The position numbers and the translations under genes are program-made. Positions 49,610-64,000 of a stretch of DNA of 64,000 bases are shown in pieces. Position 1 is the stretch's first letter. Every line of letters starts with the position of its first letter. The stretch comes from Pseudomonadota bacterium (GTDB lineage: Bacteria > Myxococcota > JACRCW01 > JAFGSX01). The stretch is from the NCBI GenBank assembly GCA_043821645.1, contig JBDRCO010000089.1, positions 40,908-104,907 of the forward strand. The letters run 5' to 3'. Below the pieces are notes generated by a model that saw only the letters and a program-made list of their open reading frames with translations, was not told the DNA's origin and did no database searches.

Positions 49610-50070
49610 GCAGGACCCTGGAGCTCAGCACCACCTCGGCGCGCCACACCGAGCGCATCGCTGCGGCCATGGCCACGGTCTGCGGGCCAGGCGATCTGAT
49701 TGCCCTCGTGGGTCCCCTGGGTGCTGGCAAGACACGTTTCGTGAGTGGCTTCGTTGCGGCACTGCCTGGAAGCGACCACGTCCGCGTGTCCTCACCCACC
49801 TTCACCACGGTGAACACCTATCCGACGACACCTCCGGTCTTTCACATGGACCTGTACCGCCTTGCGCCGGGGGTCGACGTGGACCAGCTCGGCTACGAGG
49901 AGTACACCGAGGGCGATGGAATCTGCCTCGTCGAGTGGTTTGACAGGGCGCCTCGGGTGGCTCCCGCGGACTTCCTCGAGATTCGCTTTGCCCTGCGCGC
50001 GGGTTCACGCCGACGGCTCACGCTGTGTGCGCACGGGCCGCGCAGTCGCCGGCTGCTGCCGCAGAGGTAG
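49606..50070 (+). CDS. tsaE: tRNA threonylcarbamoyladenosine biosynthesis ATPase
   Basis: GPLGAGKT, SSPTFT, HMDLYRL, LVEW. Confidence 0.94.
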   Translation: MSRTLELSTTSARHTERIAAAMATVCGPGDLIALVGPLGAGKTRFVSGFVAALPGSDHVRVSSPTFTTVNTYPTTPPVFHMDLYRLAPGVDVDQLGYEEYTEGDGICLVEWFDRAPRVAPADFLEIRFALRAGSRRRLTLCAHGPRSRRLLPQR

Positions 50071-50115
50071 CCGACCGTGCCGGCGGGTACTGCGGTTTCC
50101 GTCGACAAAAAGATC

Positions 50116-50144
50116 TTTACACACCTGGGGGCCCGCGTTATATC
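50116..50144 (+). promoter_or_regulatory. Probable sigma70 promoter of tRNA-Met
   Basis: TTTACA-17 bp-TATATC followed by a GC-rich discriminator, directly upstream of the tRNA. Confidence 0.5.
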
Positions 50145-50155
50145 GACGCCGTTGT

Positions 50156-50231
50156 TGCGGGGTGGAGCAGTTGGTAGCTCATCGGGCTCATAACCCGAAG
50201 GCCATTGGTTCGAGTCCAATCCCCGCTACCA
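50156..50231 (+). tRNA. Initiator tRNA-Met (CAT)
   Basis: Cloverleaf TGCGGGG/CCCCGCT with 1:72 mismatch, D-stem GAGC/GCTC, anticodon stem TCGGG/CCCGA (three G-C pairs) around CAT, TTCGAGT T-loop, encoded CCA. Confidence 0.97.
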
Positions 50232-50238
50232 AATGAAT

Positions 50239-50278
50239 ACGGGCGGTTAGCTAGATGGCTGACCGCCCGTTTTCTTTT
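50239..50278 (+). terminator. Rho-independent terminator after the tRNA
   Basis: ACGGGCGGTTAGC-loop-GCTGACCGCCCGT followed by TTTCTTTT. Confidence 0.85.
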
Positions 50279-50280
50279 GG

Positions 50281-50301
50281 TGTGGCCATTTTGTGGCCAT
50301 T
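50281..50301 (+). repeat. Tandem direct repeat TGTGGCCATT x2 (candidate integrase arm-type site)
   Basis: tgtggccatt-t-tgtggccatt lies between the tRNA terminator and the integrase. Confidence 0.55.
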
Positions 50302-50386
50302 CTGCGCGGGGACGGGCCCGTCCCGCAGTATCGGCTGGCTGGAGTTGCGGGGGACCTGGACGACTTTGCTCCGGTAGGAGTGAGGT

Positions 50387-51520
50387 ATGGCCAGACCCGT
50401 CCGATGCCGAGACCGATGGCGCATCCGCTGGACCGATCACATCGGCCGCCGTCGCAGCGCCATGTTCGAGCGCTTCGAGGAGGCCCAGTACGCCCTGCAG
50501 CGCTACCAGGCCGAAGCGCGCGAGGTCCGGCGCGGGTTGCGGGTCGCGCCACCCCCGGAGCATACCTTCGGCGAGCTGTGCGACTACTGGGTGAAGCACC
50601 GGCTTCCGTCCCGCCGCAGCCCCAAGGACATCGAGAGCATCGTCCGCAAGCACCTGAGGCCGAGCTTCGGCGAGCTGCCCCTGCGCCTGATCTCCATCGA
50701 GGATGTCGACAGCTTCGTCGCCGAACGTCGCTACCTGACCGACAAGACCATTCACAACCTACTCACCCTGCTGGTGACCCTGCTGCGCACCGCCGTCGAG
50801 CTGGGCTGGTTGCACCAGGTGCCCCGACTCCGCAAGCCCAGGATCCAGGTCGTCGACACGAACTACCGCTGGTTGAAGACTCCCGAGGAGATCGCCCGCC
50901 TGCTGACGGCGGCGAGAGAGGAGGGCGAGGACGTCCACGACTTGTATGCCCTGGCGATCTACACCGGGCTGCGGCAGGGCGAGATCGCGGGCCTGCGCTG
51001 GAGCGACATCTCGCTCGGTCGCAGGATGATCACCGTCGAGCGCAGCTTCTGCTCCCCGACCAAGAGCGGACGGGCTCGGCCTGTCCCCATCCTGGACCCC
51101 CTGCTGCCCATCCTGCAGCGGCGCCATCGACGCTCACAGGGCAACGTGCTGGTGTTCCCCAACGCCAGGGGCCACATGCACCTGAACGGCGCCAGTGTGT
51201 TCAGGGAGACCCTGCACCGGTTGGTCGATGCGGCGGCGTTTCAAGAAACGCAAGACGTGGGCGGGCATCGTCGTCGCTACATCGTGTTTCACAGCCTGAG
51301 GCACACCTTCGCTAGCCACTGGATGATGAACGGTGGCGACCTGTTCAAGCTGCAGAAGGTCCTGGGGCACGCCTCCGTCGAGATGACGCAGCGCTATGCC
51401 CACCTGGCCCCGGACGCCTTCGAGGACGATTACAGCCTGTTCGGGGCTGCTTCTGTCCAGAGTCGCGGCGTTCCTGACATGCCCATGGCCAAGGTTATCC
51501 CGTTTCGAGCGTCCCGGTAG
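50387..51520 (+). CDS. Tyrosine recombinase/integrase
   Basis: Catalytic set intact: TGLRQGEI, PTKSG, FHSLRH, LGH, TQRYAH; GAGGT RBS. Confidence 0.95.
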   Translation: MARPVRCRDRWRIRWTDHIGRRRSAMFERFEEAQYALQRYQAEAREVRRGLRVAPPPEHTFGELCDYWVKHRLPSRRSPKDIESIVRKHLRPSFGELPLRLISIEDVDSFVAERRYLTDKTIHNLLTLLVTLLRTAVELGWLHQVPRLRKPRIQVVDTNYRWLKTPEEIARLLTAAREEGEDVHDLYALAIYTGLRQGEIAGLRWSDISLGRRMITVERSFCSPTKSGRARPVPILDPLLPILQRRHRRSQGNVLVFPNARGHMHLNGASVFRETLHRLVDAAAFQETQDVGGHRRRYIVFHSLRHTFASHWMMNGGDLFKLQKVLGHASVEMTQRYAHLAPDAFEDDYSLFGAASVQSRGVPDMPMAKVIPFRASR

Positions 51521-51635
51521 TGACTGCGTCTTCCCGTAGATCTCGATGCCGACTCTGCGGGAGACCAAGCTCGATCCTCCACGGCTTCGCGTCGACGTGG
51601 CTGGCAAAGGACCGCTTTCTTATACCGCTACTGTC

Positions 51636-51769
51636 ATCCTCGGTCACCAGAGCCCGGAAATGACGCGCTCTACGCCTACCTCGCGCCCGATCTCTACGGC
51701 GCCGAGCACGGGATCTTCGGCCAAGAGGCCACGCTGCACCCAGCGACAGTGTCACGAATTTTCGGCTGA
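51636..51769 (+). pseudogene. Frameshifted relic of the 3' end of a second, related integrase
   Basis: Reads ILGHQSPEMTR, then after a 1-nt loss YAYLAPDLYGAEHGIFG...stop. This aligns with VLGHASVEMTQRYAHLAPDAFEDDYSLFG of the adjacent integrase. Confidence 0.75.
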
Positions 51770-51807
51770 ACCATCCGGAGAGCCGAACTACTGCACGCAG
51801 TTGAAGA

Positions 51808-51846
51808 CCCCGCAGCAACTCGAGCTCGATGCTGCGGGGGATTTCT
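51808..51846 (+). terminator. GC-rich hairpin between integrase and excisionase-like gene
   Basis: CCCCGCAGCA-loop-TGCTGCGGGG with a weak ATTTCT tail. Confidence 0.5.
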
Positions 51847-51900
51847 CGTCGTCATGGTGAGATACGTGAAGCTGGGCCAACAACACAAGGAGGACGCGAG

Positions 51901-52161
51901 ATGGCCAGCTTGATCGGCTACGCAGAGGCTGCGGACATCCTGGGACTCAAGCATGGCACCCTGTACGCGATGGTCTCCCAGCGACGGATACCGCACGTTC
52001 GAATGGGTGGGCGGCTGGTTCGCTTCGACTCGGCCGAGCTTGAGCGCTGGGTCGAGTCTCGGAGAGTGGCTGTGAGCCCCGAGGTGGACTCAGGAGCTCA
52101 TGTCTCTGATCGTCACCTCGGCGCTGCCGGTGGAAACAAGAACGGCAGGAGGCGGCCATGA
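51901..52161 (+). CDS. Excisionase-like helix-turn-helix protein (HTH_17/MerR-like)
   Basis: AAGGAGG RBS; YAEAADILGLKHGTLYAMVSQRRIPHVRMGGRLVRFD...LERW. Confidence 0.9.
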   Translation: MASLIGYAEAADILGLKHGTLYAMVSQRRIPHVRMGGRLVRFDSAELERWVESRRVAVSPEVDSGAHVSDRHLGAAGGNKNGRRRP

Positions 52162-54386
52162 ACAAGACCGTCCCCCTGCCGGAGGGGTTCGATGGGCTCG
52201 CGTTGTCGACGGCGGACGCCCACCGGACCAATGTTAACTACATAATCAACTTCGAGATCGTGTCTCAAGCCTCGCCCGCCGAGGCCACGGCCTACACTCT
52301 GCACTTCAAGAAGTCGCCGCCGGTCTGTCATCCGATGTACCGATCACGGCGGCGCAGGGACAGGTTCGTCGAGCTGCTCGGTGGCCTCGGTGATCTCGAG
52401 ATTCTCACCGGCACGAAAGCAGAGGAGCTGGACCTCAGCTTTCTCGGCCCGGACGCGGACGTGGTCCAGGTGCAGCGCCTGAGGCTGACTACGCTGGGCA
52501 CCTTGGAGGAGACCGAGGCAGCCATCTTTGAGCTCACCGCGCGGAGGGACGTGGACGCTCTATGTCCTGGCGACCTGCCTGCTCGAGTCGACCTCTCCGT
52601 GACGCTGGACGGGGCTGCTGACCACGTCGAAGTCGTCGTAGACGAGGTGCAGGTGGCCCGGTTCCTGGATGACCTCTCTCAACGCGTGGAGCGCATGCAC
52701 CGGGCTGGGGCAGACCTCCGCGTCAGCTGGGTTTCCAGGCCTGCCAGGGCTTTCAGGCTGATCACCGGCAAGCCCATCGGGCGGCCAAGGCTGGATTCCA
52801 GCACTGACACTGAAGGTGCACCCAAGGTGGTCATCAGTATTCCGGGGAAGAAGCAGGCAGTGACAAGAGTTGGACCTGTCCAGGTCTGTGACGAGCGGTC
52901 GGGAATTCACCGGACCACGACGCCTGTAGAGGAGAACGTCGCTAACAAGAAGAAGGAGAGAACCCAGGAGAGAGCCCGTACCGACCATTACCTGTATCCC
53001 CTGCCTGGTGGTTGTTCAGATATTCGTGGGTGTCCGCTGAGTTGCGCTACTCCCAGGTCTGCAGAAACCAGCCCCTACCTTGCAGATTTCGTGACGTCCC
53101 CCTTAGAGGGCTTGACCGGCCTCGAGCCCTTCTTCAAGACAGCGTTGCTTATCGACCCACGCCTTGCTTTCCGCCCGGGTAATGCGCACTACGCTCTGAC
53201 GCGGCTAGCGTCTGAGGCTGGTGTGGAACTCCTCAGCCCGGCCTTCAGGGCGCTGCTCTGCGTGGCCGCCAACGTGCTGGTCGCGTGGCAGGACGGTCGC
53301 CCGGTCGGGGTTGGTCTGGGTAATGACGACTTCCGGTGTCCGCCCCGCTACGGCCTTCCGCACTGGCGCTACAGGTACGTCAGAGAAGTGATCAATCTGC
53401 TGGAGACCGGGGGGCACATCGGAGTCAAGATCGGCACGCAGCACCCCAGCCGTCGAACACGGCTCTGGCAGCGGGATGGACTCGGCGAACTCCTCGGTGG
53501 CGTCGACGGGTACGCGGATGTCGTCGAGGATCCCCACGTCGAGTTGCTGCAGCGCAAGGACAGGTCCAAGCGGTTCGAGGACTACCAGGACAACGACAGG
53601 CTGAACCAGCAGCGCCAGCAGCTGGTTCGGTACAACGCCTTGCTGGAGAAGACCGAGATCACGCTAGCTCCGGGGCACGGGCTCGACGCCATGGCACTGC
53701 GCATCTTTGACTCGCGTCGCCAGGCCTACCGCGTGTTCAACAACAGCAGCTGGAGTCGCGGTGGGCGCATCTACTGCGCGAAGTGGCAGAACCTGCCCAA
53801 GCAGGCCCGTCGCCACATCTTGATCAACGGCGAGCCCTGCGTCGAGCTGGACTATTCGAGCCTTCACGTGCGGATGCTTTACGCCATGCGCGGCTTGGTC
53901 CTGCAGCACGACCCGTATGAGATCGACGGCCATCCCGGACTGCGCCCGCTCGGCAAGTTCATGATCCTGATTTTGCTCAACGCCAGGGGGAAGATTCAGG
54001 CCCTGAAGGCTTTCCACAAGAAGGTCATGGGCGACGCCGACCTGGCAGCGCTGCTCTTGGACAGCGGGCTCACCCCGGCGAAGCTGTACAACCAGCTTGC
54101 TGAAGCGAACAGGTGGATCGCCCATTACTTCCACACGGGCATCGGGCTCCGGCTTCAGGCCTGGGACTCGAAGATCATGATGAAGGTGGTCAACCACCTC
54201 ACGAGGCGTCAGATCCCTGGGCTCCCAGTACATGACAGCTGCATCGTTCCGGTCTCTCGCGAGGCAGACCTGAAGAGGTTGATGACCGAGGGGTACGAGA
54301 AGGAGTTCAAGTTCGGGATCCCCATCAAGCGCACCCCTGGAGTCGGCGCCGAGGTCGACAAGCCAGAGAAGGGAGGTGCGCGATGA
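52158..54386 (+). CDS. Putative family-A-like (PolA/T7-RNAP superfamily) polymerase/replicase with uncharacterised N-terminus
   Basis: GGRIY...WQNLP, ELDYSSLH (motif A), RPLGK (motif B-like), LQAWDSKIM, LPVHDS (motif C); ATGA-coupled to the HTH gene. Confidence 0.7.
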   Translation: MNKTVPLPEGFDGLALSTADAHRTNVNYIINFEIVSQASPAEATAYTLHFKKSPPVCHPMYRSRRRRDRFVELLGGLGDLEILTGTKAEELDLSFLGPDADVVQVQRLRLTTLGTLEETEAAIFELTARRDVDALCPGDLPARVDLSVTLDGAADHVEVVVDEVQVARFLDDLSQRVERMHRAGADLRVSWVSRPARAFRLITGKPIGRPRLDSSTDTEGAPKVVISIPGKKQAVTRVGPVQVCDERSGIHRTTTPVEENVANKKKERTQERARTDHYLYPLPGGCSDIRGCPLSCATPRSAETSPYLADFVTSPLEGLTGLEPFFKTALLIDPRLAFRPGNAHYALTRLASEAGVELLSPAFRALLCVAANVLVAWQDGRPVGVGLGNDDFRCPPRYGLPHWRYRYVREVINLLETGGHIGVKIGTQHPSRRTRLWQRDGLGELLGGVDGYADVVEDPHVELLQRKDRSKRFEDYQDNDRLNQQRQQLVRYNALLEKTEITLAPGHGLDAMALRIFDSRRQAYRVFNNSSWSRGGRIYCAKWQNLPKQARRHILINGEPCVELDYSSLHVRMLYAMRGLVLQHDPYEIDGHPGLRPLGKFMILILLNARGKIQALKAFHKKVMGDADLAALLLDSGLTPAKLYNQLAEANRWIAHYFHTGIGLRLQAWDSKIMMKVVNHLTRRQIPGLPVHDSCIVPVSREADLKRLMTEGYEKEFKFGIPIKRTPGVGAEVDKPEKGGAR

Positions 54387-54547
54387 CCAACGACATCGTC
54401 TTGAACTGGTGGCATTGCATCCAGCAACGCTATCCCTCGGTACGATACCAGGGCGCTCTGGGCTTCACAGACCCCTGTTGGAGCGCAAGGCACCCAACTT
54501 CTGCAATACAAAATGCAGCACCCCCGCTCCACCACCCCACTGCATGA
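54383..54547 (+). CDS. Putative 54-aa microprotein
   Basis: GGAGGT RBS and ATGA overlap with the polymerase-like stop; MTNDIVLNWWHCIQQRYP... Confidence 0.35.
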   Translation: MTNDIVLNWWHCIQQRYPSVRYQGALGFTDPCWSARHPTSAIQNAAPPLHHPTA

Positions 54548-54742
54548 GTATAAATCCAGGGTGGATATATAGCCACATATGGCCAGGTATGGTTATGGAT
54601 CCCGGTACCTTTTCCCCACGCTCACGTACAGTGCCCCGCGAATCGCAGGTCAAATTGGGCGTGACCCTACACATTCCCCTGTCTGATAGGTACCCGTCAG
54701 ACCGTTTTGACACCTGGTCAATAGCCACAATATCGGACGGTA

Positions 54743-55552
54743 TCAGCCGCAAGAATTGACCTGGTAGATCGCGCCGCTCAGCACTGCACAGCACACGTCG
54801 TTGTCTTCGGTCATTTCCGTCCGCGCGGGGAGAGCGTCTGCCATCGCGTCGATGAAGGTAAACAGCGGCACCACCATGGTTGGGTTGATGCGGAACCTGA
54901 TCATGAACTCTTCAAGCGCCCACTCTAGCCGAAAGTGGTCCCTGCCGAGTTCCTGGCCAATCCGGTCAATGGTGTCATCGTGCAGGCTCGCTCCATCGAC
55001 CATGGAGTCGAGCTGCTTACGGAGAGCGTCAGCCGTCTCCGTCTTGCCCTTTTCGAGCTTGCATCGTGCTGCCTGATGTTGCCTGCGCTTTTCCCGCAGA
55101 ACCCTTTCCCGCGCCGCCAGGGACACGGTTCGCATCTGCCCCCCCTGGTTCGCACCCTTGACCTGACGGTTGCCAGCGAAGATCCAGCGCGGTGCGACAG
55201 CCGAAGCCCCGCTGCCGCTTCTTTCAAGGACGCGCACACCTGACCGCGCCATCAGGAAGGCGATGGTGGCGGCCGTGGCTATCAGCCAGTGCTGGTGGTT
55301 GTTGCGCCGGTCAAACCCCTCGAGCGCGACGCCGAGCCCATCGGACAGGACCTCCACCGCCAGATCGCGGGGTAGGCCGAAGGCCTGCTGGAAACGAGAG
55401 GCGGGCAGCGCCTGTCCGACCAGGGCATGGATCACACGGTGGCGTACCCCCTTGCGCTTTGGTGGTTCACCGCTCTTTGCCCACCGGCGTATGGCCTTGG
55501 CGTTGGCGTCGCCCAATCGCGGCTCGAGCCGGAGCACCTCCATCAGGAGCAT
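54743..55552 (-). CDS. Hypothetical protein (ORF open to 55687)
   Basis: Long ORF with GGGGAG RBS before the ATG at 55552; no recognised family. Confidence 0.6.
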   Translation of the reverse strand: MLLMEVLRLEPRLGDANAKAIRRWAKSGEPPKRKGVRHRVIHALVGQALPASRFQQAFGLPRDLAVEVLSDGLGVALEGFDRRNNHQHWLIATAATIAFLMARSGVRVLERSGSGASAVAPRWIFAGNRQVKGANQGGQMRTVSLAARERVLREKRRQHQAARCKLEKGKTETADALRKQLDSMVDGASLHDDTIDRIGQELGRDHFRLEWALEEFMIRFRINPTMVVPLFTFIDAMADALPARTEMTEDNDVCCAVLSGAIYQVNSCG

Positions 55553-55739
55553 GAGCAGCTCCCCGGAATGAGAAGGCAGAGGTGGACGCTCTTCTGTCAG
55601 GTCCGCTCCTCGACTTTGACCGAGGTCATTCTGCAGCCCGGCCCTGGTGTGTAGCAAGTCGGATGCGGGAGTTCCTCCCGGCGACACCGAGACCCAGTGT
55701 CGCCGGGAGGTGCAGAATGAAGCAGGGCTCTGTCAGGTG

Positions 55740-55901
55740 CTACTTCTTCGGCGGCGCGTTAGTCCTCCCATGCCCGGAAGGCTTGCCTGGATGCGCGCTG
55801 GGCCAGCCCGGTCCCTGGCCACCCTTGGGAACACCGCCGCCGCCACCTCCGCCCTGACCGCTCTTGATGCCACCACCACCCTTGCTGCTGCTCTTGCCCA
55901 T
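55740..55901 (-). CDS. 53-aa Gly/Lys/Pro-rich microprotein
   Basis: GAGGAG RBS and ATG; MGKSSSKGGGG...PGWPSAHPGKPSGHGRTNAPPKK; coding-like codon usage. Confidence 0.65.
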   Translation of the reverse strand: MGKSSSKGGGGIKSGQGGGGGGGVPKGGQGPGWPSAHPGKPSGHGRTNAPPKK

Positions 55902-56291
55902 GTTCAGCTCCTCTTGCCGGTCCGATTTTTTCGTCAGGCGCTGCACCGGCCCCAGCGTCGGACGGTGGAGAGGCCATTCCCGCCCTCCACGCGGATAGCG
56001 GTAGGCACGGCCCAGGGGCCGGCACGGAGGATTCCTGGACAAGACCCGCCGCAGGCGGGGGAGGCATCAGGCATCCTCGGCCCGCAGCCGAGCCCCAGAC
56101 CCAGGCTGAAGGTCGTGGCGTCGAGCACCTGCGAGCCCCCGCCCTTTCCTGCCGGGCCCAGGAACGCGTTTGCCATTCCGCCCACCTCGTGACCTGTGGT
56201 ACTTCACCCAACGGAACGAGGCCCGCCGACGTCGAGCCCATGCGGGGGGCGCGCCGGTCCCCCCGTCCGATCGCGACCAGGAGACTGCCCG

Positions 56292-58754
56292 ATGCCTCTC
56301 AAGAAATCCGAGCTCTACAGCTCGCTCTGGAAGAGCTGCGACGAGCTGCGCGGCGGCATGGATGCCTCGCAGTACAAGGACTACGTCCTGGTCCTGCTGT
56401 TCATGAAGTACGTCTCCGACAAGTACGCCGGCCAGAAGGACGCCCTGCTCGACGTGCCCAAGGGTGGCAGCTTCGCAGACATGGTAGCACTCAAGGGCGA
56501 CAAGGAGATCGGCGACAAGATCAACAAGATCATAGGCAAGCTCGCTGACAAGAACGACCTCAGGGGCGTCATCGACGTCGCCGACTGGAACGACACCGAC
56601 AAGCTGGGCAAGGGCAAGGAGATGGTCGACCGCCTGTCGAGGCTGGTCGGCATCTTCGAGGGGCTCGACTTTGGCAAGAACCGGGCGGACGGCGACGATC
56701 TGCTCGGGGACGCCTACGAGTACCTGATGCGGCACTTCGCCACCGAGTCGGGCAAGAGCAAGGGGCAGTTCTACACCCCTGCCGAGGTCTCGCGCATCCT
56801 GTCTCGGGTCATCGGCGTCGACCAGGCCAAGAACTCGAAGCAAGCCATCCATGACCCGACCTGCGGCTCGGGCTCGCTCTTGCTCAAGGCCCACGACGAG
56901 GCCAAGGGCAACACCGGCCTCGACCTCGCCCTGTACGGGCAGGAGATGGACGTGGCCACCGCCGCCCTGGCCCGCATGAACATGATCTTGCACGACTGCA
57001 TCACCGCCGAGGTGAAGCAGGGCAACACGCTGGCGAGCCCCCACTACACGGACAAGAGCGGGCTCAAGACCTTCGACTTCGTGGTGGCCAATCCACCGTT
57101 CTCCAACAAGGCCTGGAGCAACGGCCTGCACCCCGAGGACGACGAGTACAAGCGCTTCGAGTTTGGCATCCCCCCGGCCAAGAACGGCGACTACGCCTTC
57201 TTGCTGCACGTGCTCACGAGCCTCAAGAGCACCGGCAAGGGCGCCATCATCTTGCCCCATGGCGTGCTCTTTCGCGGCGGCGCCGAGGCCAACATCCGCA
57301 GGGAGATCGTCAGGCGCGGCTACATCAAGGGCATCATCGGCCTGCCCCCCAACCTCTTCTACGGCACGGGCATCCCGGCCTGCATCGTCGTGCTCGACAA
57401 GGAGAACGCCCACGCCCGCAAGGGCATCTTCATGCTCGACGCCTCCAAGGGCTTCATCAAGGACGGCCCCAAGAACCGCCTGCGGGCCCAGGACATCCAC
57501 CGCATCGTCGACACCTTCAACCGGCAGGTCGAGGTCGAGCGCTACGCCCGCATGGTGGGGCTGTCAGAGATCTCCGACCCCAAGAACGACTTCAACCTCA
57601 ACCTGCCCCGCTACATCGACAGCACCGAGCCCGAGGACATCCAGGACATCGACGGTCACCTCCGGGGTGGCATCCCTGATCGGGACATCGACGCCCTCGC
57701 CTCATACTGGGAGGTGTTCCCGGCGGTGCGCTCGCTCCTGTTCAAGTCGGCGGGGCGCGAGGGCTACTGCCAGCTCAAGGTGCCGGTAACCGAGGTGAAG
57801 GCCGCCATCTTCGGGCATGAGCAGTTCACCGCGTTCATCGCCACGGTCACCAAGCTGTTCGAGCAATGGAAGAAGGCCAACACCGCCCGGCTACACGGCA
57901 TCGAGGTCGGCGACAAGCCCAAGGCCCTGATCGGCACGCTGTCCGAGGACTTGCTGGGGATCTTCCACAAGGCCCCGCTGGTCGATGGCTACGACGTGTA
58001 CCAGCGGCTGATGGACTACTGGGCCACGACCATGCAGGACGACGTGTACCTCATCGTCCACTCGGGTTGGGTCGAGGCGGCGAAGCCCAGGCACATCATC
58101 GAGAGCAAGGAGAACAAGAGCAAGGAGGAGCCCGACTTCGTCGTCGACAAGAAGAAGTTCAAGTCCGACCTCATCCCGGCCCGCCTGCTCGTCGCACGCT
58201 ATTTCCAGAAGGAGCAGGCCGCCATCGACGAGGCGGAGGCCTCGCTCGCGGCAGCCGAGCAGCAGCTCGAAGAGCTCAAGGACGAGCACGGGGGCGAGGG
58301 TGGTCTGCTCGAGGTGGTCATCGAGGGTGAGGGCGACAAGCGCAAGATCTCGAGGAAGGCCGTGACTGCGCTGCTGGATGAGATTGCAGGGGACAAGGAA
58401 GCTGCCGACGAGCGTGAGATTCTTGAGCTGTACCTTGGTGTTCTGGATCAGGCGTCCGACGCAAAGGGAGTGCTGAAGGCCGCTCGGAGCACGCTGGAGG
58501 CCAAGGTCGCCGCCCATTACGGCAAGCTCAAGGAAGCCGACATCAAGGCACTGGTGGTCGAGGACAAGTGGCTGGCGCAGCTTGCTGCCGACGTGCGGGG
58601 AGAGCTCGACCGTGTGTCTCAGGCGCTGACTGCTCGGATCAAGGAGTTGGCCGAGCGATACGAAGCACCACTGCCGGTGCTCCTGGCCCAGCTTGAAGGA
58701 CTATCGGCCAAGGTCGATGGGCACCTCCGACGTATGGGGGCGGTATGGAATTGA
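56292..58754 (+). CDS. hsdM: Type I R-M methyltransferase subunit (long form)
   Basis: LW.SCDELRG.MDAS.YKDY, GQFYTP, DPTCGSGSLL, NPPF, PHGVLFRG; AGGAG RBS. Confidence 0.96.
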   Translation: MPLKKSELYSSLWKSCDELRGGMDASQYKDYVLVLLFMKYVSDKYAGQKDALLDVPKGGSFADMVALKGDKEIGDKINKIIGKLADKNDLRGVIDVADWNDTDKLGKGKEMVDRLSRLVGIFEGLDFGKNRADGDDLLGDAYEYLMRHFATESGKSKGQFYTPAEVSRILSRVIGVDQAKNSKQAIHDPTCGSGSLLLKAHDEAKGNTGLDLALYGQEMDVATAALARMNMILHDCITAEVKQGNTLASPHYTDKSGLKTFDFVVANPPFSNKAWSNGLHPEDDEYKRFEFGIPPAKNGDYAFLLHVLTSLKSTGKGAIILPHGVLFRGGAEANIRREIVRRGYIKGIIGLPPNLFYGTGIPACIVVLDKENAHARKGIFMLDASKGFIKDGPKNRLRAQDIHRIVDTFNRQVEVERYARMVGLSEISDPKNDFNLNLPRYIDSTEPEDIQDIDGHLRGGIPDRDIDALASYWEVFPAVRSLLFKSAGREGYCQLKVPVTEVKAAIFGHEQFTAFIATVTKLFEQWKKANTARLHGIEVGDKPKALIGTLSEDLLGIFHKAPLVDGYDVYQRLMDYWATTMQDDVYLIVHSGWVEAAKPRHIIESKENKSKEEPDFVVDKKKFKSDLIPARLLVARYFQKEQAAIDEAEASLAAAEQQLEELKDEHGGEGGLLEVVIEGEGDKRKISRKAVTALLDEIAGDKEAADEREILELYLGVLDQASDAKGVLKAARSTLEAKVAAHYGKLKEADIKALVVEDKWLAQLAADVRGELDRVSQALTARIKELAERYEAPLPVLLAQLEGLSAKVDGHLRRMGAVWN

Positions 58755-59992
58755 GGCCTGGATACAGACGGACCGAAGTTGGGGCGATCCCCGAGAATTG
58801 GGACGTCGGGGCCCTCGGCGGAATCGCAAGAATCAAGACCGGCCCCTTTGGCACACTTCTCAAAGCCCATGAGTATTCGTCCGGTGACGGTGTCCCGTTG
58901 ATTTCGGTCGGCGAGGTGGGAGAAGGCCAGCTTCGAGTTGACGCTGACACGCCCCGCGTGCCGGCCTCCGTGTTGAGGCGACTTCCAGAGTACATTTTGC
59001 AGGCTGGAGACATCGTTGTTGGGAGGAAGGGAGCAGTAGACCGCTCGGCGCTAGTGGGGGCTCAGCAGTCCGGATGGTTTCTCGGATCTGACGGTATTCG
59101 CATTCGACCGTTGAACGGTTGCCATCCCCCGTTTGTCGCCTGGCAGCTTCAAAGGGGCGATGTTCGTTCGTGGCTTCTGCAAAACGCGACGGGCACCACA
59201 ATGCCGTCGATGAATCAGGAGATACTCAGCCGCGTCGTCCTGCCGCTGCCGCCACTGGTCGAACAACGCGCCATCGCCACCGCCCTGTTGGATGTCGATG
59301 CCCTGATCACCAAGATCGACCAGCTCATCACCAAGAAGCGGGACCTCAAGCAGGGCGCCATGCAGCAGCTCCTCACCGGCAAGACGCGGCTGCAGGGGTT
59401 CAAGGGGGAGTGGGAGACCAAGCGGCTCGGCGCGATCTGTCAAATTCGGATGGGTCGTACTCCTAGCCGTCTCAATCAGGCCTACTGGGGTCCTGGTCAC
59501 ACCTGGCTTTCGATTTCGGATCTCCAAGAAAAGGTCGTCTCGGCGTCGAAGGAGCAGATCACGGAACTGGGTGCGCAAGGCATGGAGGTCGTGCCGGCGG
59601 GCACTCTGCTGATGAGCTTCAAGCTCTCAATAGGACGCCTGGCGTTTGCCGGCTGCTGCCTCTACACGAATGAGGCGATTTGCAGCTTCAACGATATCCA
59701 GGCGAGTGCCGACTATCTCTACTACGCGCTCGCTCGCACCGACTTCTCGCTTTACGGAAAGCAGGCTGTGAAGGGCCACACGCTGAACACTCAATCGCTG
59801 AAGGAAATTGAGGTTCGCCTTCCCGAGCGTCCCGAACAGGACGCGATTTCATCGATTCTCTCAGACATGGACACCGAACTCGCCGCCCTCGAAAACCGCC
59901 GCGACAAGACCCGCGCTCTCAAGCAAGGGATGATGCAGGAATTACTAACTGGACGAATACGGCTTTTACCGAAATCGGGGTGTCCTGCATGA
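58745..59992 (+). CDS. hsdS: Type I R-M specificity subunit
   Basis: TEVG.IPENW, PPL.EQRAIA..L, K.G.MQ.LLTG twice; two TRDs. Confidence 0.95.
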   Translation: MELRPGYRRTEVGAIPENWDVGALGGIARIKTGPFGTLLKAHEYSSGDGVPLISVGEVGEGQLRVDADTPRVPASVLRRLPEYILQAGDIVVGRKGAVDRSALVGAQQSGWFLGSDGIRIRPLNGCHPPFVAWQLQRGDVRSWLLQNATGTTMPSMNQEILSRVVLPLPPLVEQRAIATALLDVDALITKIDQLITKKRDLKQGAMQQLLTGKTRLQGFKGEWETKRLGAICQIRMGRTPSRLNQAYWGPGHTWLSISDLQEKVVSASKEQITELGAQGMEVVPAGTLLMSFKLSIGRLAFAGCCLYTNEAICSFNDIQASADYLYYALARTDFSLYGKQAVKGHTLNTQSLKEIEVRLPERPEQDAISSILSDMDTELAALENRRDKTRALKQGMMQELLTGRIRLLPKSGCPA

Positions 59993-61860
59993 ATAGCGGT
60001 CGCTACCCCGATGGACTCGTTGTCACAACCCAGGATTTCATCGACTGTGGGTGGAGAACCGTATTGGACAGTGCCACACGAGAGGGTTATCCATCGATGT
60101 GGCAGGCATTCGCAGGCGCAGCAAAGAAAGCCATCGACGAAAACCGACTGGCTCATGGCAAGGTCCTATGGCTCTTGGCTGATGCCTGTTCGATGATGCT
60201 AGCTCCCGATAGCCCGAGCGAGCCATTCAGGCCAATCATGGTGCTCCAGGGCCGACGCACAACAATTGTCGACGATTTATCCGATGCTGACATCTCCTTC
60301 TACGCTCAAATCGTAGAAGTTTTTGATGACCCGTGGCTGAATGCACGTTTGGCAGATATCGTTTGGCACAAACAGAAACCGCGTGAAGTTAAGTACGCGC
60401 TGATGGCCATAGACAGCTACCGGCGAATCCCTCTTGAAACGGATATCTGGGTGAGCGGAGGCGATGAATGCTGGAAGCGGGCGATTGCATTAGCAATCCT
60501 GCTAAAGAAAGGCGCCGGTAGTAGACTAAAAGAGATGGAACATGACGTTCTCATGGCGTTCGGTTGGGCAACACGGGAGGATGGCTTCCTGGCATGTTGG
60601 CTTGCCGTTCTATTGGATTCAAATGGACTTGGCAATTCCGCTATCGACGAAATTGCACAGAAGCTGGAATCACTAGCTTCTGAGTTTGATAGAGACAGCG
60701 ATCTTAACAGATCGCGTGGGTATTTTGAGGAATCAAGGAAGTGGTTTCAGAAAGCTGAAAATGTTTCAAAGACAACCTCTATGACTGCTGCCGTAGCGGA
60801 GACCTGGGTCAAGGAAGCCGCTAGACGTCTCGAGAGCAAAGACCCCAGCAACATGGTTGCCGCTACATTTTATGAAAAGGCCATACAGATCTATCGCACG
60901 ATTCCTCACTCAGAGCGCGGCCCCCATCGAACAGCTGAACGTCTTGAAGAACTTCGGACAAAACTCTCAGATGCAGGTGAAAAATCATTGGGCGAGATGC
61001 GGCCTATCAGCGTTCCTGGTGCCGATATAAGTCAGATTGTGGGCAGTGCTCGAAGTGCAGTGGGTGGCAAAGCAGCTGTTGAAGCACTAAGAGCATTTGC
61101 CAATCTTTGCCGCACAGCAAACTGCAACGAGATGCGGCAGAACGCACTTACTATGCTAAACGAACATCCCCTGCAGGCACTTTTTGGAAACAGCGTCCTC
61201 AGCCAAGACGGGCGAGTTATTGCCAAGGCAAAAGGGCTAAGTCACGGCGCCGAGCCAACCGAAGATGACGAGATAACCATTCGTACCACTATGATCAGAG
61301 AGTATGGGATCATGGTGGGCATCAACGTTTTAGGCAACATTCTCCCTGCATTAGAGGTGCTGCTGCTGGAGCAACACCTAAAAGAGCCTGATTTCATCTC
61401 ATTATGCCGCCAATCCCCCATAGTCCCAGTTGGTCGTGCTCGACTGTTCGGGAAAGCTCTATTTGCAGGGTATGACCGCGATTTTATCAGCGCTCTCCAT
61501 CTGCTAACCCCGCAAATTGAGAACATGGTACGATACCATTTAAAACAAGCAGGAGCGAAGACCACGAATCTCGATCAGCAAGGTATCGAGAATGAAAATG
61601 GCCTGAGTACGCTCATTGAATTGCCCGAGGCAGAGAGAGTCTTTGGACCAGACCTCGTGTTCGAGATCAAGACCTTGTTTTGCGATTCCTTTGGCTCAAA
61701 TTTGCGAAATGAAATTTCACATGGTTTGCTCAATGACGATTCTTTTCAGTCTGCAGCGGTGGTGTACGCGTGGTGGCTCGGGCTGAAACTCGTTTTCAAT
61801 ACATTCTGGAATGCCGCAAGAAAACCTGCTGAAGCCGGCGGGGAAGGTCAAGAAGAATGA
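59989..61860 (+). CDS. DUF4209-like HEPN-motif protein (putative defence RNase)
   Basis: AT-rich ORF of about 620 aa with helical N-terminus, LLTPQIEN.VR and C-terminal GSNLRNEISHG (RxxxxH). Confidence 0.75.
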   Translation: MNSGRYPDGLVVTTQDFIDCGWRTVLDSATREGYPSMWQAFAGAAKKAIDENRLAHGKVLWLLADACSMMLAPDSPSEPFRPIMVLQGRRTTIVDDLSDADISFYAQIVEVFDDPWLNARLADIVWHKQKPREVKYALMAIDSYRRIPLETDIWVSGGDECWKRAIALAILLKKGAGSRLKEMEHDVLMAFGWATREDGFLACWLAVLLDSNGLGNSAIDEIAQKLESLASEFDRDSDLNRSRGYFEESRKWFQKAENVSKTTSMTAAVAETWVKEAARRLESKDPSNMVAATFYEKAIQIYRTIPHSERGPHRTAERLEELRTKLSDAGEKSLGEMRPISVPGADISQIVGSARSAVGGKAAVEALRAFANLCRTANCNEMRQNALTMLNEHPLQALFGNSVLSQDGRVIAKAKGLSHGAEPTEDDEITIRTTMIREYGIMVGINVLGNILPALEVLLLEQHLKEPDFISLCRQSPIVPVGRARLFGKALFAGYDRDFISALHLLTPQIENMVRYHLKQAGAKTTNLDQQGIENENGLSTLIELPEAERVFGPDLVFEIKTLFCDSFGSNLRNEISHGLLNDDSFQSAAVVYAWWLGLKLVFNTFWNAARKPAEAGGEGQEE

Positions 61861-64000
61861 GCTCAGTCGGCCAGATCGAAAAGAAGACGCAGAAGCGTGT
61901 CGTCAAGCTCTTCAGCGGTGAGCCTTCGGAGGGCGGTCTTGGCTATGTGTACCTCGGCAGCTGGATCGACCACGAGGGCAACAGCAACATCGACGAGCCG
62001 CTGCTGCGGGAGTTTCTCTCCGGGAAGCAGCACTACGACGACGGACTCATCACCCGAGCCCTGCACCAGCTCACCAAGACCGCCGCTGACACCAGCAAGA
62101 CCATTTACGACCGCAACCGGGCCGTCTACGAGTTGCTCCGCTATGGCGTGAAGGTGAAGCCCGACGTGGGTGAGCACACCGAGACCGTGTGGCTCATCGA
62201 CTGGAAGCACCCCGAGAAGAACAACTTTGGCGTGGCCGAAGAAGTCGCCATCCAGCCGGTCGACCCCACCGCCCACGGCAAGCGCCCCGACGTTGTCCTC
62301 TACGTCAACGGCATCGCCCTGGTCGTGCTGGAGCTCAAGCGCTCGACGGTTTCGGTGACAGAGGGCATCCGTCAGCAGCTCGATAACCAGAAGAAGATGT
62401 TCATCGAGCACTTCTTCTCGACGGCGCAGTGGCTCCTTGCCGGCAACGACACCGAGGGGCTGCGCTACGGCTCCATCCAGACTCCTGAGAAGTACTACCT
62501 CAGATGGAAAGAGGACGGGCTCGAGCCTAACCCGCTCGACCGTGCCCTGCTTCAGCTATGCGCCAAGGAGCGCTTGCTTGAGCTCGTCCACGACTTCATC
62601 GTCTTCGACGCCGGCATCAAGAAGCTCTGCCGTCACAACCAGTACTTCGGCGTGCGGGCCGCCCAGGACTTCGCCAAGCGTCGCGAGGGCGGCATCATCT
62701 GGCACACCCAAGGCTCAGGCAAGAGCCTGACCATGGTGTGGCTGGCAAAGTGGATTCGAGAGCACGTGAAGGACGGTCGGGTGCTCATCATCACCGACCG
62801 CAACGAGCTCGACGAGCAGATCGAAGGGGTGTTCAAGGGAGTCAACGAGGACATCTACCGCACCAAGAGCGGGGCCGATCTGACAGGCACACTGAACGCC
62901 ACCACACCGTGGCTCGTGTGCTCGCTGGTTCACAAGTTCGGCGCCCACAAGAGCAGTGATGACGACGGCGCCGTCGCCGACTACATCGCCGAGATCAAGA
63001 AGGCTCTCCCCAAGGGCTTCAAAGCCAAGGGCAGCCTCTTCGTCTTTGTTGACGAGTGCCACCGCACTCAGTCCGGCGATCTGCACAAGGCCATGAAGGC
63101 CATCCTGCCCGATGCCGTGTTCATCGGCTTCACCGGCACTCCGCTTCTCAAGGCCGACAGGCAAAAGAGCCTCGAAGTCTTTGGTCGCTACATCCACACC
63201 TACAAGTTCGACGAGGCCGTGCGAGATGGCGTTGTGCTCGACCTCCGCTACGAAGCGCGGGACATCGACCAGCGCATCACCTCGCAGGCCAAGATAGACG
63301 AATGGTTCGAGGCCAGCACTGCACCGCTGACCGATGTAGCCAAGGCCCAGCTCAAGCAGCGCTGGGGCACCATGCAGAAGGTCCTGTCGAGCAAGTCCCG
63401 GCTGGACCAAATCGTGGCCGACATCCTGATGGACATGGTCAAGCGTGACCGGCTCAAGAGCGGTCGAGGCAATGCCATGCTGGTGTCGGGGAGCATCTAC
63501 GAGGCCTGCAAGTTCTACGAGCTCTTCGCCAAGACGTGGCTCAAGGGAAAGTGCGCGATCATCACGTCATTCGTGCCTGCAGCCTCGGTCGTGAAGGGCG
63601 AAGAGACCGGCGCGGGGCTCACCGAAACGCTGGAGCAATACGACATCTACCAGCAGATGCTGGCCGACTGGTTCAACGAACCTGCCGGAATCGCGCTCTA
63701 CCGCGTGACCGAATTCGAACGCGAGGTGAAGAAGAAGTTCATAAACGAGCCAGGGCAGATGAAGTTGCTCATCGTCGTCGACAAGCTGCTCACCGGCTTC
63801 GATGCACCACCCGCCACGTACCTGTACATCGACAAGGAGATGCAGGACCACGGCCTCTTCCAGGCCATCTGCCGCACCAACCGCCTCGACGGTGAAGACA
63901 AAGACTACGGCCACATCGTGGACTACAAAGACCTCTTCAGGAAACTGGAAAATGCCATCGCCGTCTACACCTCCGAACTGGACGACAGCGCCGGCGGTCC
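61857..64000 (+). CDS. hsdR: Type I R-M restriction subunit (3' truncated by the window; missing from the ORF track)
   Basis: Manual translation MSSVGQIEKKTQKRVV...; RPDVVLYVNGIALVVLELK nuclease motif, IWHTQGSGKS Walker A, VDECHR, LLTGFD, QAICRTNR. Confidence 0.95.
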   Translation, partial: MSSVGQIEKKTQKRVVKLFSGEPSEGGLGYVYLGSWIDHEGNSNIDEPLLREFLSGKQHYDDGLITRALHQLTKTAADTSKTIYDRNRAVYELLRYGVKVKPDVGEHTETVWLIDWKHPEKNNFGVAEEVAIQPVDPTAHGKRPDVVLYVNGIALVVLELKRSTVSVTEGIRQQLDNQKKMFIEHFFSTAQWLLAGNDTEGLRYGSIQTPEKYYLRWKEDGLEPNPLDRALLQLCAKERLLELVHDFIVFDAGIKKLCRHNQYFGVRAAQDFAKRREGGIIWHTQGSGKSLTMVWLAKWIREHVKDGRVLIITDRNELDEQIEGVFKGVNEDIYRTKSGADLTGTLNATTPWLVCSLVHKFGAHKSSDDDGAVADYIAEIKKALPKGFKAKGSLFVFVDECHRTQSGDLHKAMKAILPDAVFIGFTGTPLLKADRQKSLEVFGRYIHTYKFDEAVRDGVVLDLRYEARDIDQRITSQAKIDEWFEASTAPLTDVAKAQLKQRWGTMQKVLSSKSRLDQIVADILMDMVKRDRLKSGRGNAMLVSGSIYEACKFYELFAKTWLKGKCAIITSFVPAASVVKGEETGAGLTETLEQYDIYQQMLADWFNEPAGIALYRVTEFEREVKKKFINEPGQMKLLIVVDKLLTGFDAPPATYLYIDKEMQDHGLFQAICRTNRLDGEDKDYGHIVDYKDLFRKLENAIAVYTSELDDSAGG

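What the first reader, a model, noticed from the sequence alone, without database searches (positions are those of the whole stretch)
53230..54386. Minimal PolA-like catalytic core preceded by a possible winged-helix domain
Seen: GGRIYCAKWQNLP, ELDYSSLH, RPLGK, LQAWDSKIM and VHDS occur in the same order as PolA's TGRLSS..PNLQNIP, DYSQIE (motif A), R...K (motif B), IQGTAADI and VHDE (motif C). Both catalytic Asp residues are kept, but the motif-B YG and all exonuclease domains are absent. The upstream segment YRYVREVINLLETGGHIGVKIG...RRTRL looks like a winged helix. Inference: related to the little-studied transposon/virus (TV-Pol-type) polymerases and possibly a primase-polymerase that recognises its own origin.
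Basis: partly seen in the sequence, partly recalled or inferred. Interest (0 to 1): 0.75.

Follow-up and report, generated by a model that had tools for sequence, protein, structure and literature searches.

The report
Minimal PolA-like polymerase of a genomic island
A gene in a mobile DNA island inserted at a tRNA gene encodes a stripped-down relative of DNA polymerase I joined to a DNA-binding winged helix; it belongs to a large, almost unstudied enzyme family that probably starts copying of such islands.

Summary
Window 53230-54386 is the C-terminal 383 residues of one 742-aa ORF (52158-54386, +). All quoted motifs are present. AlphaFold2 (pLDDT 93.9) gives a winged helix (residues 360-456) followed by a thumb-palm-fingers core (457-735). 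[quoted passage not shown] Both catalytic Asp (D565, D693) are kept in 159 of 159 homologues.

The gene lies in a ~21.8-kb island at tRNA-Met, in the order integrase, AlpA-like HTH, this gene, then a type I restriction-modification operon. The family is large (6,882 cluster representatives). Neither Pfam nor NCBIfam matches this protein, and no solved relative is found by sequence.

In 79 related loci, 44 have a tyrosine integrase or serine resolvase within three genes. 44 of 60 scanned loci have a tRNA or tmRNA gene nearby. These features fit the TV-Pol family predicted in 2008. A profile match to the probable TV-Pol of phage Ma-LMM01 (78.6%, E 1.7e-5) is stronger than the match to PolA.

It is a new member of a known but barely characterised kind. 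Priming, origin recognition and sugar choice are untested. The steric-gate Glu of PolA is His here, and motif C is HDSF as in T7 RNA polymerase. No helicase, SSB partner or origin repeats were found.

The parts
50156..50231 (+). tRNA-Met (CAT), the integration site (attL). Its last 45 nt (50187-50231) are repeated at the far end of the island on contig C68.
   Evidence: ARAGORN. An exact 25-nt match on G000:C68:347702-347726(-) lies outside any tRNA gene. The alignment shows 45 identical nt.
50387..51520 (+). Tyrosine integrase (377 aa)
   Evidence: Pfam Phage_integrase, E 4.4e-28. It falls in one BLAST cluster with integrases next to family members in 38 of 79 loci.
51829..52161 (+). AlpA/HTH_17-type small DNA-binding protein (probable excisionase or regulator). 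Its stop overlaps the start of the polymerase gene by 4 nt.
   Evidence: Pfam HTH_17, E 8.3e-13, and Phage_AlpA, E 7.4e-5; coordinates.
52158..52982 (+). N-terminal ~275 residues of the 742-aa protein, an orphan region of unknown fold
   Evidence: AGGAGG lies 5 nt before the ATG, and GC3 is 0.73-0.85 over residues 1-210. No Pfam family. No homologue among 3,769 candidates. No usable Atlas hit. The single-sequence AF2 model has pLDDT 32.
52983..53234 (+). Residues 276-359: linker plus the helical lead-in that the nearest homologues share. The coding signal is weakest here (GC3 0.60-0.67).
   Evidence: Alignment A2 shows the N-termini of P0013, P0015 and P0016 starting to align here. GC profile.
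53235..53525 (+). Winged-helix domain (residues 360-456)
   Evidence: AF2 model elements H2-19, H46-58 and hairpin E62-65/E75-79. VIA Z 6.3-7.6 to MarR, PadR and AF1382 winged helices.
53526..54362 (+). Minimal family-A polymerase core (residues 457-735): short thumb, hairpin G536-R537, motif A D565 (with H570), fingers D585 and R596/K600/N608, motif C H692-D693-S694
54743..55687 (-). 314-aa ORF of unknown function, convergent with the polymerase gene
   Evidence: No Pfam or PADLOC family. No relative among the neighbours in 79 loci.
56196..63998 (+). Cargo: type I restriction-modification operon. hsdM 56196-58754, hsdS 58745-59992, PDC-S39/DUF7380-DUF4209 gene 59980-61860, hsdR 61857 to beyond the window end.
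   Evidence: Pfam; PADLOC PDC-S39, E 1.7e-239. An HsdR C-terminal domain sits at the end of contig C68.

Best explanation
The 742-aa protein is a TV-Pol-type enzyme: a winged-helix DNA-binding domain fused to the smallest known form of the family-A (PolA / T7 RNAP) polymerase core, with no exonuclease. It is encoded directly after the integrase and an AlpA-like gene of a ~21.8-kb island inserted in tRNA-Met. Shown here: the fold, an intact two-Asp active site, the island context, and the recurrent link of the family with site-specific recombinases and tRNA or tmRNA genes. Inferred: after Int/AlpA-mediated excision, the protein binds a site on the circular island through its winged helix. It then starts a new strand de novo or extends a short primer, and hands over to the host replisome, so the excised island is copied before loss or transfer. 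Whether it makes DNA or RNA is open.
For: Fold and active site: AF2 pLDDT 93.9; Z 10-13 to PolA enzymes and T7-like RNAPs over ~230-257 residues; Foldseek probability 1.00. G536, R537, R551, D565, K600, H692 and D693 are each kept in 159 of 159 homologues, R596 in 156 and D585 in 150. Island: tRNA-Met, integrase, HTH_17/AlpA; GC falls from ~0.68 to ~0.62; a 45-nt att repeat lies 8.1 kb from the end of contig C68, which carries the HsdR C-terminus. The family was not found in 25 of 25 other genomes of the phylum, and the own genome has one copy. Family context: within +-3 genes, tyrosine integrase in 38 of 79 loci, serine resolvase in 16 of 79, either in 44 of 79. A tRNA or tmRNA gene lies within <=7 kb in 44 of the 60 loci scanned. 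The order integrase, HTH_17, polymerase, then type I R enzyme is repeated in L007. Link to TV-Pol: all features listed in PMC2579912 are present; hhalign to the Ma-LMM01 gp030 family gives 78.6%, E 1.7e-5. Precedent for priming by a family-A core: CcPol-MP (PMC7581432).
Against: No activity was tested. No origin-like repeats or iterons lie near the gene. No helicase, SSB or small OB-fold partner was recognised in the island or as a recurrent neighbour. CcPol alone only extends primers. The family is almost absent from plasmids: 4 of 72,556 records, which is odd for a replication initiator. It is common in large lytic phages that carry their own replisomes, with up to three places per genome. 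The sequence-level link to PolA is weak (probability 39.8%). The link to a published TV-Pol rests on my inference that gp030 is that protein. The A1 profile itself did not find gp030 significantly (E 4.5), and the two fall in different PHROGs. The first 275 residues are unexplained.
Confidence: 0.55

Rival explanations
1. It makes RNA. Either it is a minimal promoter- or origin-specific single-subunit RNA polymerase, or a 'transcription primase' like T7 RNAP at the T7 origin or mitochondrial RNAP. The winged helix would serve as the specificity module.
For: Structural matches to yeast mitochondrial RNAP (Z 12.9) and T7 RNAP (Z 11.7) tie with those to DNA polymerases (13.1-11.8). Motif C is HDSF as in T7 RNAP (IHDSFG), not HDE, and the hairpin GGR(I/F)Y resembles T7 RGRVY. 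1 of 65 members hits Pfam RNA_pol PF00940 at E 2.3e-4. The PolA steric-gate Glu (D+5) is His in 156 of 159 homologues, and the residue at the position of the PolA Phe (R+8) is Leu in this protein. CcPol, which prefers dNTPs, keeps both. De novo initiation is native to this branch of the superfamily (established knowledge).
Against: T7 Tyr639 (R+12) is Asn here, in 157 of 159 homologues. The hhalign match to T7 RNAP covers only 35 columns, E 0.034. There is no equivalent of the T7 N-terminal domain or specificity loop in a 280-residue core. An Atlas neighbour cluster and one phage relative are named DNA polymerase.
Confidence: 0.2
2. It is a primer-dependent gap-filling or repair polymerase that works with the element's recombination machinery (integrase or resolvase, or the Rad52-like annealing protein and PD-(D/E)XK nuclease at the other end of the island). 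It would not be a replication starter.
For: Its closest association is with site-specific recombinases (44 of 79 loci), not helicases. The island carries a Rad52-like protein and a PDDEXK nuclease. The family is rare on plasmids. CcPol alone only extends primers.
Against: The Rad52/nuclease pair is not a recurrent neighbour. Tyrosine and serine recombinases need no DNA synthesis (established knowledge). A sequence-specific-looking winged helix fused to the polymerase is not expected for gap filling.
Confidence: 0.15
3. It is part of an anti-phage or counter-defence function of the island, for example synthesis of a nucleic-acid product on infection.
For: Defence genes are frequent neighbours: restriction-modification genes in 5 of 40 loci, an OLD-like ATPase in L003, Cas9/Cas1 in L014. 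The window has type I R-M plus PDC-S39. One relative is fused to a reverse transcriptase (P0011).
Against: P0001 has no PADLOC match. The defence neighbours vary and are more simply read as island cargo. The constant partners are the recombinase and the tRNA site.
Confidence: 0.06

Closest known systems
TV-Pol family (Iyer, Abhiman, Aravind 2008, Biol Direct 3:39; PMC2579912)
   Same: Minimal family-A core with a two-helix thumb, hairpin Arg, two Asp, and a fingers Asp plus RxxxK. No nuclease. Typical protein size 400-600 aa (median 487 aa in 79 loci). An extra N-terminal domain. Found next to lambda-type integrases or resolvases in restriction-modification hot spots. Also found in phages. Same bacterial groups (Rhodobacterales, Rhizobiales, Desulfobacterota).
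   Different: Membership could not be checked against the authors' own list: their supplement gave 106 characters of text. The N-terminal domain, called 'all-helical, uncharacterized' in 2008, is resolved here as containing a winged helix. This protein carries a further ~275-residue orphan extension. There is no D5-like helicase.
CcPol-MP primase of SCCmec (Bebel et al. 2020, PMC7581432) and PolA-SSB pairs (PMC10061031)
   Same: Exonuclease-less family-A polymerase encoded by an integrative element. It is the only experimental precedent for de novo DNA synthesis by this fold.
   Different: CcPol is recognisable as PolA by sequence and keeps the equivalents of E710 and F762, where this protein has His570 and Leu604. 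[quoted passage not shown] None of these partners is seen here.
Bacterial DNA polymerase I / Klenow-type family A polymerases (Pfam PF00476)
   Same: Palm-fingers-thumb fold (Z 11.8-12.6). The order hairpin GR, motif A D-Y-S, RxxxK, motif C HD is the same.
   Different: No Pfam hit at E<=10. No exonuclease domains. About 280 residues instead of ~420 for the polymerase domain. Steric-gate Glu is His; the motif-B F...YG is absent; HDE is HDS.
T7-like single-subunit RNA polymerases (Pfam PF00940) and N4 RNAPII
   Same: Equal structural similarity (Z 11.7-12.9). HDSF motif C and a GR(V/F)Y hairpin.
   Different: No equivalent of Tyr639; no N-terminal promoter-binding domain or specificity loop; a third of the size.

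Membership tests
TV-Pol (Iyer et al. 2008) | Minimal family-A catalytic unit: thumb centred on two antiparallel helices, RRM-like palm, fingers inserted after the first palm strand; no nuclease domain | tested here: met
   AF2 elements H121-139/H152-160 (thumb), E200-207, fingers helices H237-291, H304-324, hairpin E330-339. Z 10-13 to family-A enzymes. Pfam reports no nuclease.
TV-Pol (Iyer et al. 2008) | [quoted passage not shown] | tested here: met
   G536-R537 lie in hairpin E164-168/E176-181 of the model. R is kept in 159 of 159 homologues.
TV-Pol (Iyer et al. 2008) | Two highly conserved metal-binding Asp in the palm | tested here: met
   D565 and D693 are kept in 159 of 159 homologues. 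They align with the PolA motif A and C Asp. Their 3-D superposition was not inspected, because no coordinates were available.
TV-Pol (Iyer et al. 2008) | Fingers with a conserved Asp and an RxxxK motif | tested here: met
   D585 in 150 of 159, R596 in 156 of 159, K600 in 159 of 159.
TV-Pol (Iyer et al. 2008) | Encoded in mobile elements with a lambda-type integrase, gamma-delta resolvase or transposase, often in restriction-modification hot spots (or with a D5-like helicase) | tested here: met
   Window. Related loci: integrase or resolvase in 44 of 79; restriction-modification genes in 5 of 40. No D5-like helicase was seen.
TV-Pol (Iyer et al. 2008) | Detectable sequence relationship to a published member | tested here: inconclusive
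   hhalign of A1 against the Ma-LMM01 gp030 family: 78.6%, E 1.7e-5, 163 columns, all motifs aligned. That gp030 is the published Ma-LMM01 TV-Pol is inferred from its size and its IS605-type neighbours. The plain HMM search was not significant. The authors' list could not be read.
Canonical family A DNA polymerase (Pfam DNA_pol_A, PF00476) | Match to the Pfam model at its gathering score | tested here: not met
   No Pfam family at E<=10 for P0001. None of 65 family members hits PF00476 at E<=0.01.
Canonical family A DNA polymerase (Pfam DNA_pol_A, PF00476) | Motif A DYSQIELR with the steric-gate Glu; motif B RxxxKxxxFGxxYG; motif C HDE | tested here: not met
   This protein has DYSSLH (His570), RPLGKFMILILLNA and HDS. 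The PolA consensus comes from 23 genomes.
T7-like single-subunit RNA polymerase (PF00940) | Pfam match; motif C HDSF; Tyr639-type residue on the O-helix | tested here: inconclusive
   HDSF is shared. 1 of 65 members hits PF00940 at E 2.3e-4, and the window protein does not. The residue at R+12 is Asn608, not Tyr.
PolA-SSB (CcPol-MP) primases | Adjacent small OB-fold partner and helicase; retained remnant of the exonuclease domain | tested here: inconclusive
   No SSB, OB-fold or helicase Pfam family among neighbours in the window or in 40 loci, and no recurrent small neighbour. The authors report that MP-like proteins are found by structure prediction rather than sequence (abstract), and that was not done here.

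The most novel reading that the evidence does not exclude
This wHTH-TV-Pol group, with thousands of members in tRNA-integrated islands and large phages, may be the smallest self-sufficient, sequence-specific de novo initiators of the PolA/T7 RNAP superfamily. In this reading the fused winged helix picks the start site. The His in place of the steric-gate Glu, together with the T7-like HDSF motif, lets the ~280-residue core start chains with ribonucleotides. The enzyme would then be a minimal 'transcription primase', or even a minimal RNA polymerase, and not a DNA polymerase.
Probability: 0.2. Interest if true: 0.8.

Novelty: new member of a known kind. Interest (0 to 1): 0.45.

Why it matters
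The family-A fold is among the best-studied of all polymerase folds. Yet this branch is very large: 6,882 representatives at 50% identity, 4,519 of them at E<=1e-10. Pfam and NCBIfam give no match for this protein, no relative with a solved structure is found by sequence, and the library searches made here turned up no enzymology for this branch.

It shows how far the core can be pared down: about 280 residues, with the canonical nucleotide-selecting residues replaced. It appears to be the standard replication-type gene of a widespread class of small tRNA-integrated islands that carry defence cargo.

Biochemistry on one member would settle three points. First, whether these islands replicate on their own. 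Second, whether a family-A core can prime without an SSB partner. Third, what a His at the steric gate does to sugar choice. A very small sequence-targeted polymerase could also be useful as a tool.

Tried and rejected
1. Sequence searches of P0001 against Pfam, NCBIfam and PDB chains found nothing, with a single sequence or with the A1 profile.

2. The search for related loci failed with A1 because it has no conserved 7-10-column stretch. With the single protein it found nothing. The 12-sequence alignment A2 worked.

3. Direct tests against phage Ma-LMM01. The genome search with A1 found nothing. My own hmmsearch over 205 ORF translations gave no significant hit (best E 1.3; gp030 E 4.5). gp030 belongs to phrog_34692, not phrog_4756. 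Only the profile-profile comparison linked them.

4. The supplement of Iyer et al. 2008 was unreadable, at 106 characters. The authors' member list was therefore not seen.

5. N-terminal residues 1-275: no homologue among proteins of 151-482 aa, no usable Atlas hit, and a useless single-sequence AF2 model of residues 1-359 (pLDDT 32). Longer or shorter relatives were not searched.

6. Origin search: no iterons or tandem repeats of note in 50000-56400. The direct and inverted repeats found look like chance.

7. attR was not in the window. It was found on another contig.

8. Plasmid search: only 4 records, none from the species named in the 2008 paper.

9. PADLOC: no match for P0001.

10. Earlier scan notes: nothing at this place or for this sequence.

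12. An archaeo-eukaryotic prim-pol fold was considered and rejected, because the 15 best VIA rows are all family-A DNA polymerases or T7-like RNA polymerases.

13. No complex prediction was run, because no binding partner is claimed.
Full report
WHAT IS THERE

The finding (53230-54386) is not a gene of its own. It is the C-terminal 383 residues of a 742-aa ORF, 52158-54386 on the + strand. An AGGAGG lies 5 nt before the ATG, and the ATG overlaps the stop of the preceding gene by 4 nt.

Pfam (E<=10), NCBIfam (E<=10) and a sequence search of all PDB chains give nothing. The only library hit is PHROG phrog_4756, function unknown, at E 2e-53 over residues 404-715.

FAMILY

An exhaustive phmmer search with residues 360-742 against 1.84 billion cluster representatives found 6,882 proteins at E<=1e-3. 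Of these, 4,519 are at E<=1e-10 and 268 at E<=1e-30. Most are 400-600 aa; in 79 genomic loci the median is 487 aa and the maximum 636 aa.

I aligned the 159 other retrieved proteins to the family HMM (the 150 best hits plus the word-index hits). The conservation is as follows:
- G536, R537, R551, D565, K600, H692 and D693: 159 of 159.
- S694: 158. N608: 157. H570 and R596: 156. D585: 150.

FOLD

AlphaFold2 on a 65-sequence alignment gave mean pLDDT 93.9 and pTM 0.90.

Foldseek against the PDB gave 118 hits at E<=1e-3. All 50 listed are family-A DNA polymerases (Bst, Taq, Pol theta, apPol, M. smegmatis Pol1), at probability 1.00. The best E is 1.2e-5, but TM is only about 0.3.

The Foldseek-independent VIA-align search aligned model residues ~97-376 (protein 456-735) as follows:
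- apicoplast Pol: Z 13.1, 243 residues, rmsd 3.9.
- yeast mitochondrial RNAP: Z 12.9.
- Aquifex Pol I: Z 12.6.
- Klenow: Z 11.8.
- T7 RNAP: Z 11.7.
- T7 DNAP: Z 11.0.

The next unrelated rows are near Z 7.6. Model residues 1-97 (protein 360-456) match winged-helix proteins (AF1382, MarR, PadR, kleisin C-terminal domains) at Z 6.3-7.6. That range calls for caution, but the hits are consistent with each other. In BFVD the 11 best hits are phage proteins of 400-450 aa aligned over their whole length (E 5e-19 to 5e-24), so the winged-helix-plus-core architecture is shared.

SEQUENCE-LEVEL LINKS

A profile-profile comparison with 23 PolA polymerase domains taken from genomes of the same phylum gave E 3e-4, but probability only 39.8%, over 204 columns. 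The hairpin (GGRFY / TGRLS, Q..P / LQNIP), motif A (ELDYS.LH / ADYSQIELR) and motif C (VHDSFIV / VHDELV) align in order. The fingers alignment is unreliable.

With T7 RNAP only motif C aligns (35 columns, E 0.034), but it is the closer match: IHDSFG. T7 also has RGRVY at the hairpin. One of the 65 family members hits Pfam RNA_pol at E 2.3e-4, and none hits DNA_pol_A. An ESM Atlas neighbour cluster (TM 0.83) is auto-named 'DNA-directed DNA polymerase family A palm domain-containing protein'.

IS IT A TV-POL?

I read the main text of Iyer, Abhiman and Aravind 2008 (PMC2579912; parts 1 and 2 of 3). The family is defined by:
- a thumb of two antiparallel helices;
- a hairpin with an invariant Arg;
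- a palm with two Asp;
- fingers with a conserved Asp and RxxxK;
- no nuclease;
- a size of 400-600 residues;
- either a D5-like helicase or an uncharacterised N-terminal domain.

For the subset with the N-terminal domain, the authors add neighbourhoods with a gamma-delta resolvase, a lambda-type integrase or a transposase, in hot spots rich in restriction-modification operons. Every one of these features is met here (see Membership tests).

For a direct link I took phage Ma-LMM01, which the paper names as carrying a TV-Pol element. Its gp030 is 505 aa, annotated 'hypothetical', and lies beside two transposase genes. That makes it the likely candidate, but this is my inference.

A plain HMM search was not significant (E 4.5), although it aligned the hairpin and motif A. 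A profile of gp030 and its 7 homologues matched the family profile at 78.6% probability, E 1.7e-5, over 163 columns. The aligned motifs were GLRxYE..GGLQ, N.D...CH, K...L...NGA, LQ and QHDGALI. That is stronger than the match to PolA.

The authors' supplementary list could not be read. I therefore put membership at about 0.8.

CONTEXT IN THE WINDOW

The gene order is:
- TsaE;
- tRNA-Met, 50156-50231;
- tyrosine integrase, 50387-51520;
- HTH_17/AlpA, 51829-52161;
- the polymerase gene;
- an unknown convergent ORF, 54743-55687;
- hsdM, hsdS, a DUF7380/DUF4209 gene (PADLOC PDC-S39), and hsdR running off the window.

GC falls from ~0.68 to ~0.62 at the tRNA. The window ends at a contig end.

The last 45 nt of the tRNA recur on contig C68, on the minus strand ending at 347726 and not inside a tRNA gene. 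This lies 8.1 kb from the end of that contig. That stretch starts with an HsdR C-terminal domain, followed by a YgjP-like peptidase, unknown ORFs, a PD-(D/E)XK nuclease and a Rad52-like annealing protein.

The island is therefore about 13.8 + 8.1 = 21.8 kb, if the two contigs abut. The gene is single-copy in this genome. It was not found in the 25 other genomes of the phylum that were searched.

CONTEXT IN RELATIVES

A pattern scan of 185,579 species genomes found 361 relatives, and the best 80 loci were kept. They are mostly Alphaproteobacteria (Rhizobium, Mesorhizobium, Rhodobacteraceae, Paracoccus), Ignavibacteriales, Desulfobacterota and Methylophilaceae.

I called genes myself with a crude greedy longest-ORF method. 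One locus was dropped because no polymerase ORF was called in it.
- BLAST clustering of the +-3 neighbours put a tyrosine integrase in 38 of 79 loci, a serine resolvase in 16 of 79, and either in 44 of 79.
- Pfam on the +-2 neighbours of the first 40 loci confirmed the cluster identities. It also showed restriction-modification genes in 5 of 40, HTH_17 in 3 of 40, an OLD-like ATPase once and Cas9/Cas1 once. It showed no replicative helicase or SSB.
- ARAGORN found a tRNA or tmRNA gene in 44 of the 60 longer loci scanned, out of 80. It often lies 2.5-3.5 kb upstream on the same strand, as in the window.
- No other recurrent neighbour family exists.

The family is in 168 phage records: Vibrio 141, Aeromonas 14, Pseudoalteromonas 6, Shewanella 4, Klebsiella 2 and Pseudaeromonas 1. 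The 30 rows listed are annotated 'hypothetical protein' or 'conserved hypothetical protein', apart from one record without annotation, and there are up to 3 places per genome. It is in only 4 of 72,556 plasmid records.

HOW IT PROBABLY WORKS

Shown: an intact two-metal family-A active site on a pared-down core, fused to a winged helix, in the slot directly after int and alpA of a tRNA-integrated island.

Inferred: it acts on the excised island as a starter of DNA synthesis, with the winged helix giving site choice. This follows the 2008 prediction and the one experimental precedent. In that work the CcPol-MP complex of SCCmec synthesises DNA without a primer, using the CcPol Asp residues, while CcPol alone only extends primers (PMC7581432, passages read). 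[quoted passage not shown]

A 2023 reclassification of family-A polymerases mentions CcPol but, in the passages I searched, not TV-Pols (PMC10201439).

WHAT IS DIFFERENT, AND OPEN

CcPol keeps the two PolA residues that exclude ribonucleotides, E710 and F762. This family has His at D+5 in 156 of 159 homologues, and this protein has Leu at R+8. Together with HDSF, the sugar choice cannot be predicted, which is the basis of the RNA-synthesis rival.

Several results count against a simple 'replication initiator' reading:
- there are no origin-like repeats;
- there is no helicase or SSB partner;
- the family is near-absent from plasmids;
- there are multiple copies in lytic phages.

The first ~275 residues of this particular protein have no relatives, no usable Atlas hit and no confident model. 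They are nevertheless clearly coding (GC3 0.73-0.85). Residues 211-330 have the weakest coding signal and may be a linker left by a gene fusion. The 742-aa product is recorded as called in NCBI and is a singleton at 90% identity.

VERDICT

This is a new member of a known, computationally defined and almost uncharacterised family. The modest additions here are:
- the winged-helix identity of the N-terminal module;
- the strong tRNA-island association;
- the His steric-gate and HDSF signature;
- the very large size of the unannotated family.

Function as an island primase-polymerase remains an inference, at about 0.5.

Noticed in passing
window 50187-50231 and G000:C68:347682-347726 (L117, L119): A 45-nt direct repeat of the tRNA-Met 3' half marks both ends of the island. 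Contig C89 (the window end) and contig C68 appear to join inside hsdR, giving an island of ~21.8 kb. The hairpin after the tRNA is also present at the far end, with several paired differences.
   Followed up: yes
window 59980-61860: A 626-aa DUF7380/DUF4209 protein sits between hsdS and hsdR. It matches the PADLOC candidate defence family PDC-S39 at E 1.7e-239, so a candidate defence gene is embedded in a type I restriction-modification operon.
   Followed up: partly
L119 2560-4316 (G000:C68, far arm of the island): A Rad52/22-like annealing protein (E 2.4e-8) and a PD-(D/E)XK nuclease (E 7.1e-31) lie side by side. This is a phage-type recombination pair inside the island. A YgjP-like metallopeptidase lies next to the hsdR end.
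   Followed up: partly
protein P0011: A 931-aa relative of the polymerase family also carries a reverse-transcriptase domain (PF00078, E 3.8e-10). This is a fusion of two polymerase types.
   Followed up: no
phage records; L121: 168 phage genomes, mostly 110-140-kb Vibrio and Aeromonas phages including V. cholerae phages, carry one to three copies. The 30 rows listed are annotated as hypothetical (one record has no annotation). In Aeromonas phage 4L372D the gene sits among small unknown genes next to an XRE-type gene.
   Followed up: partly
window 55674-55710: A perfect 14-nt inverted repeat (9-nt spacer) overlaps the start of the unknown 314-aa ORF, in the divergent region before hsdM. It may be an operator or a terminator.
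   Followed up: no
G000:C43:107961-109028 (L001): The only Pfam DNA_pol_A match in this 94.7%-complete assembly is a ~580-aa short form. Most of the other genomes searched in the phylum have a ~900-aa Pol I, and many also have such a short form. The canonical polA may lie in an assembly gap.
   Followed up: no
window 52158-53234: The N-terminal ~275 residues of the polymerase protein are an orphan: no homologue, no family, no confident model. Residues 211-330 show a dip in third-position GC, which suggests a gene fusion or a disordered linker.
   Followed up: partly
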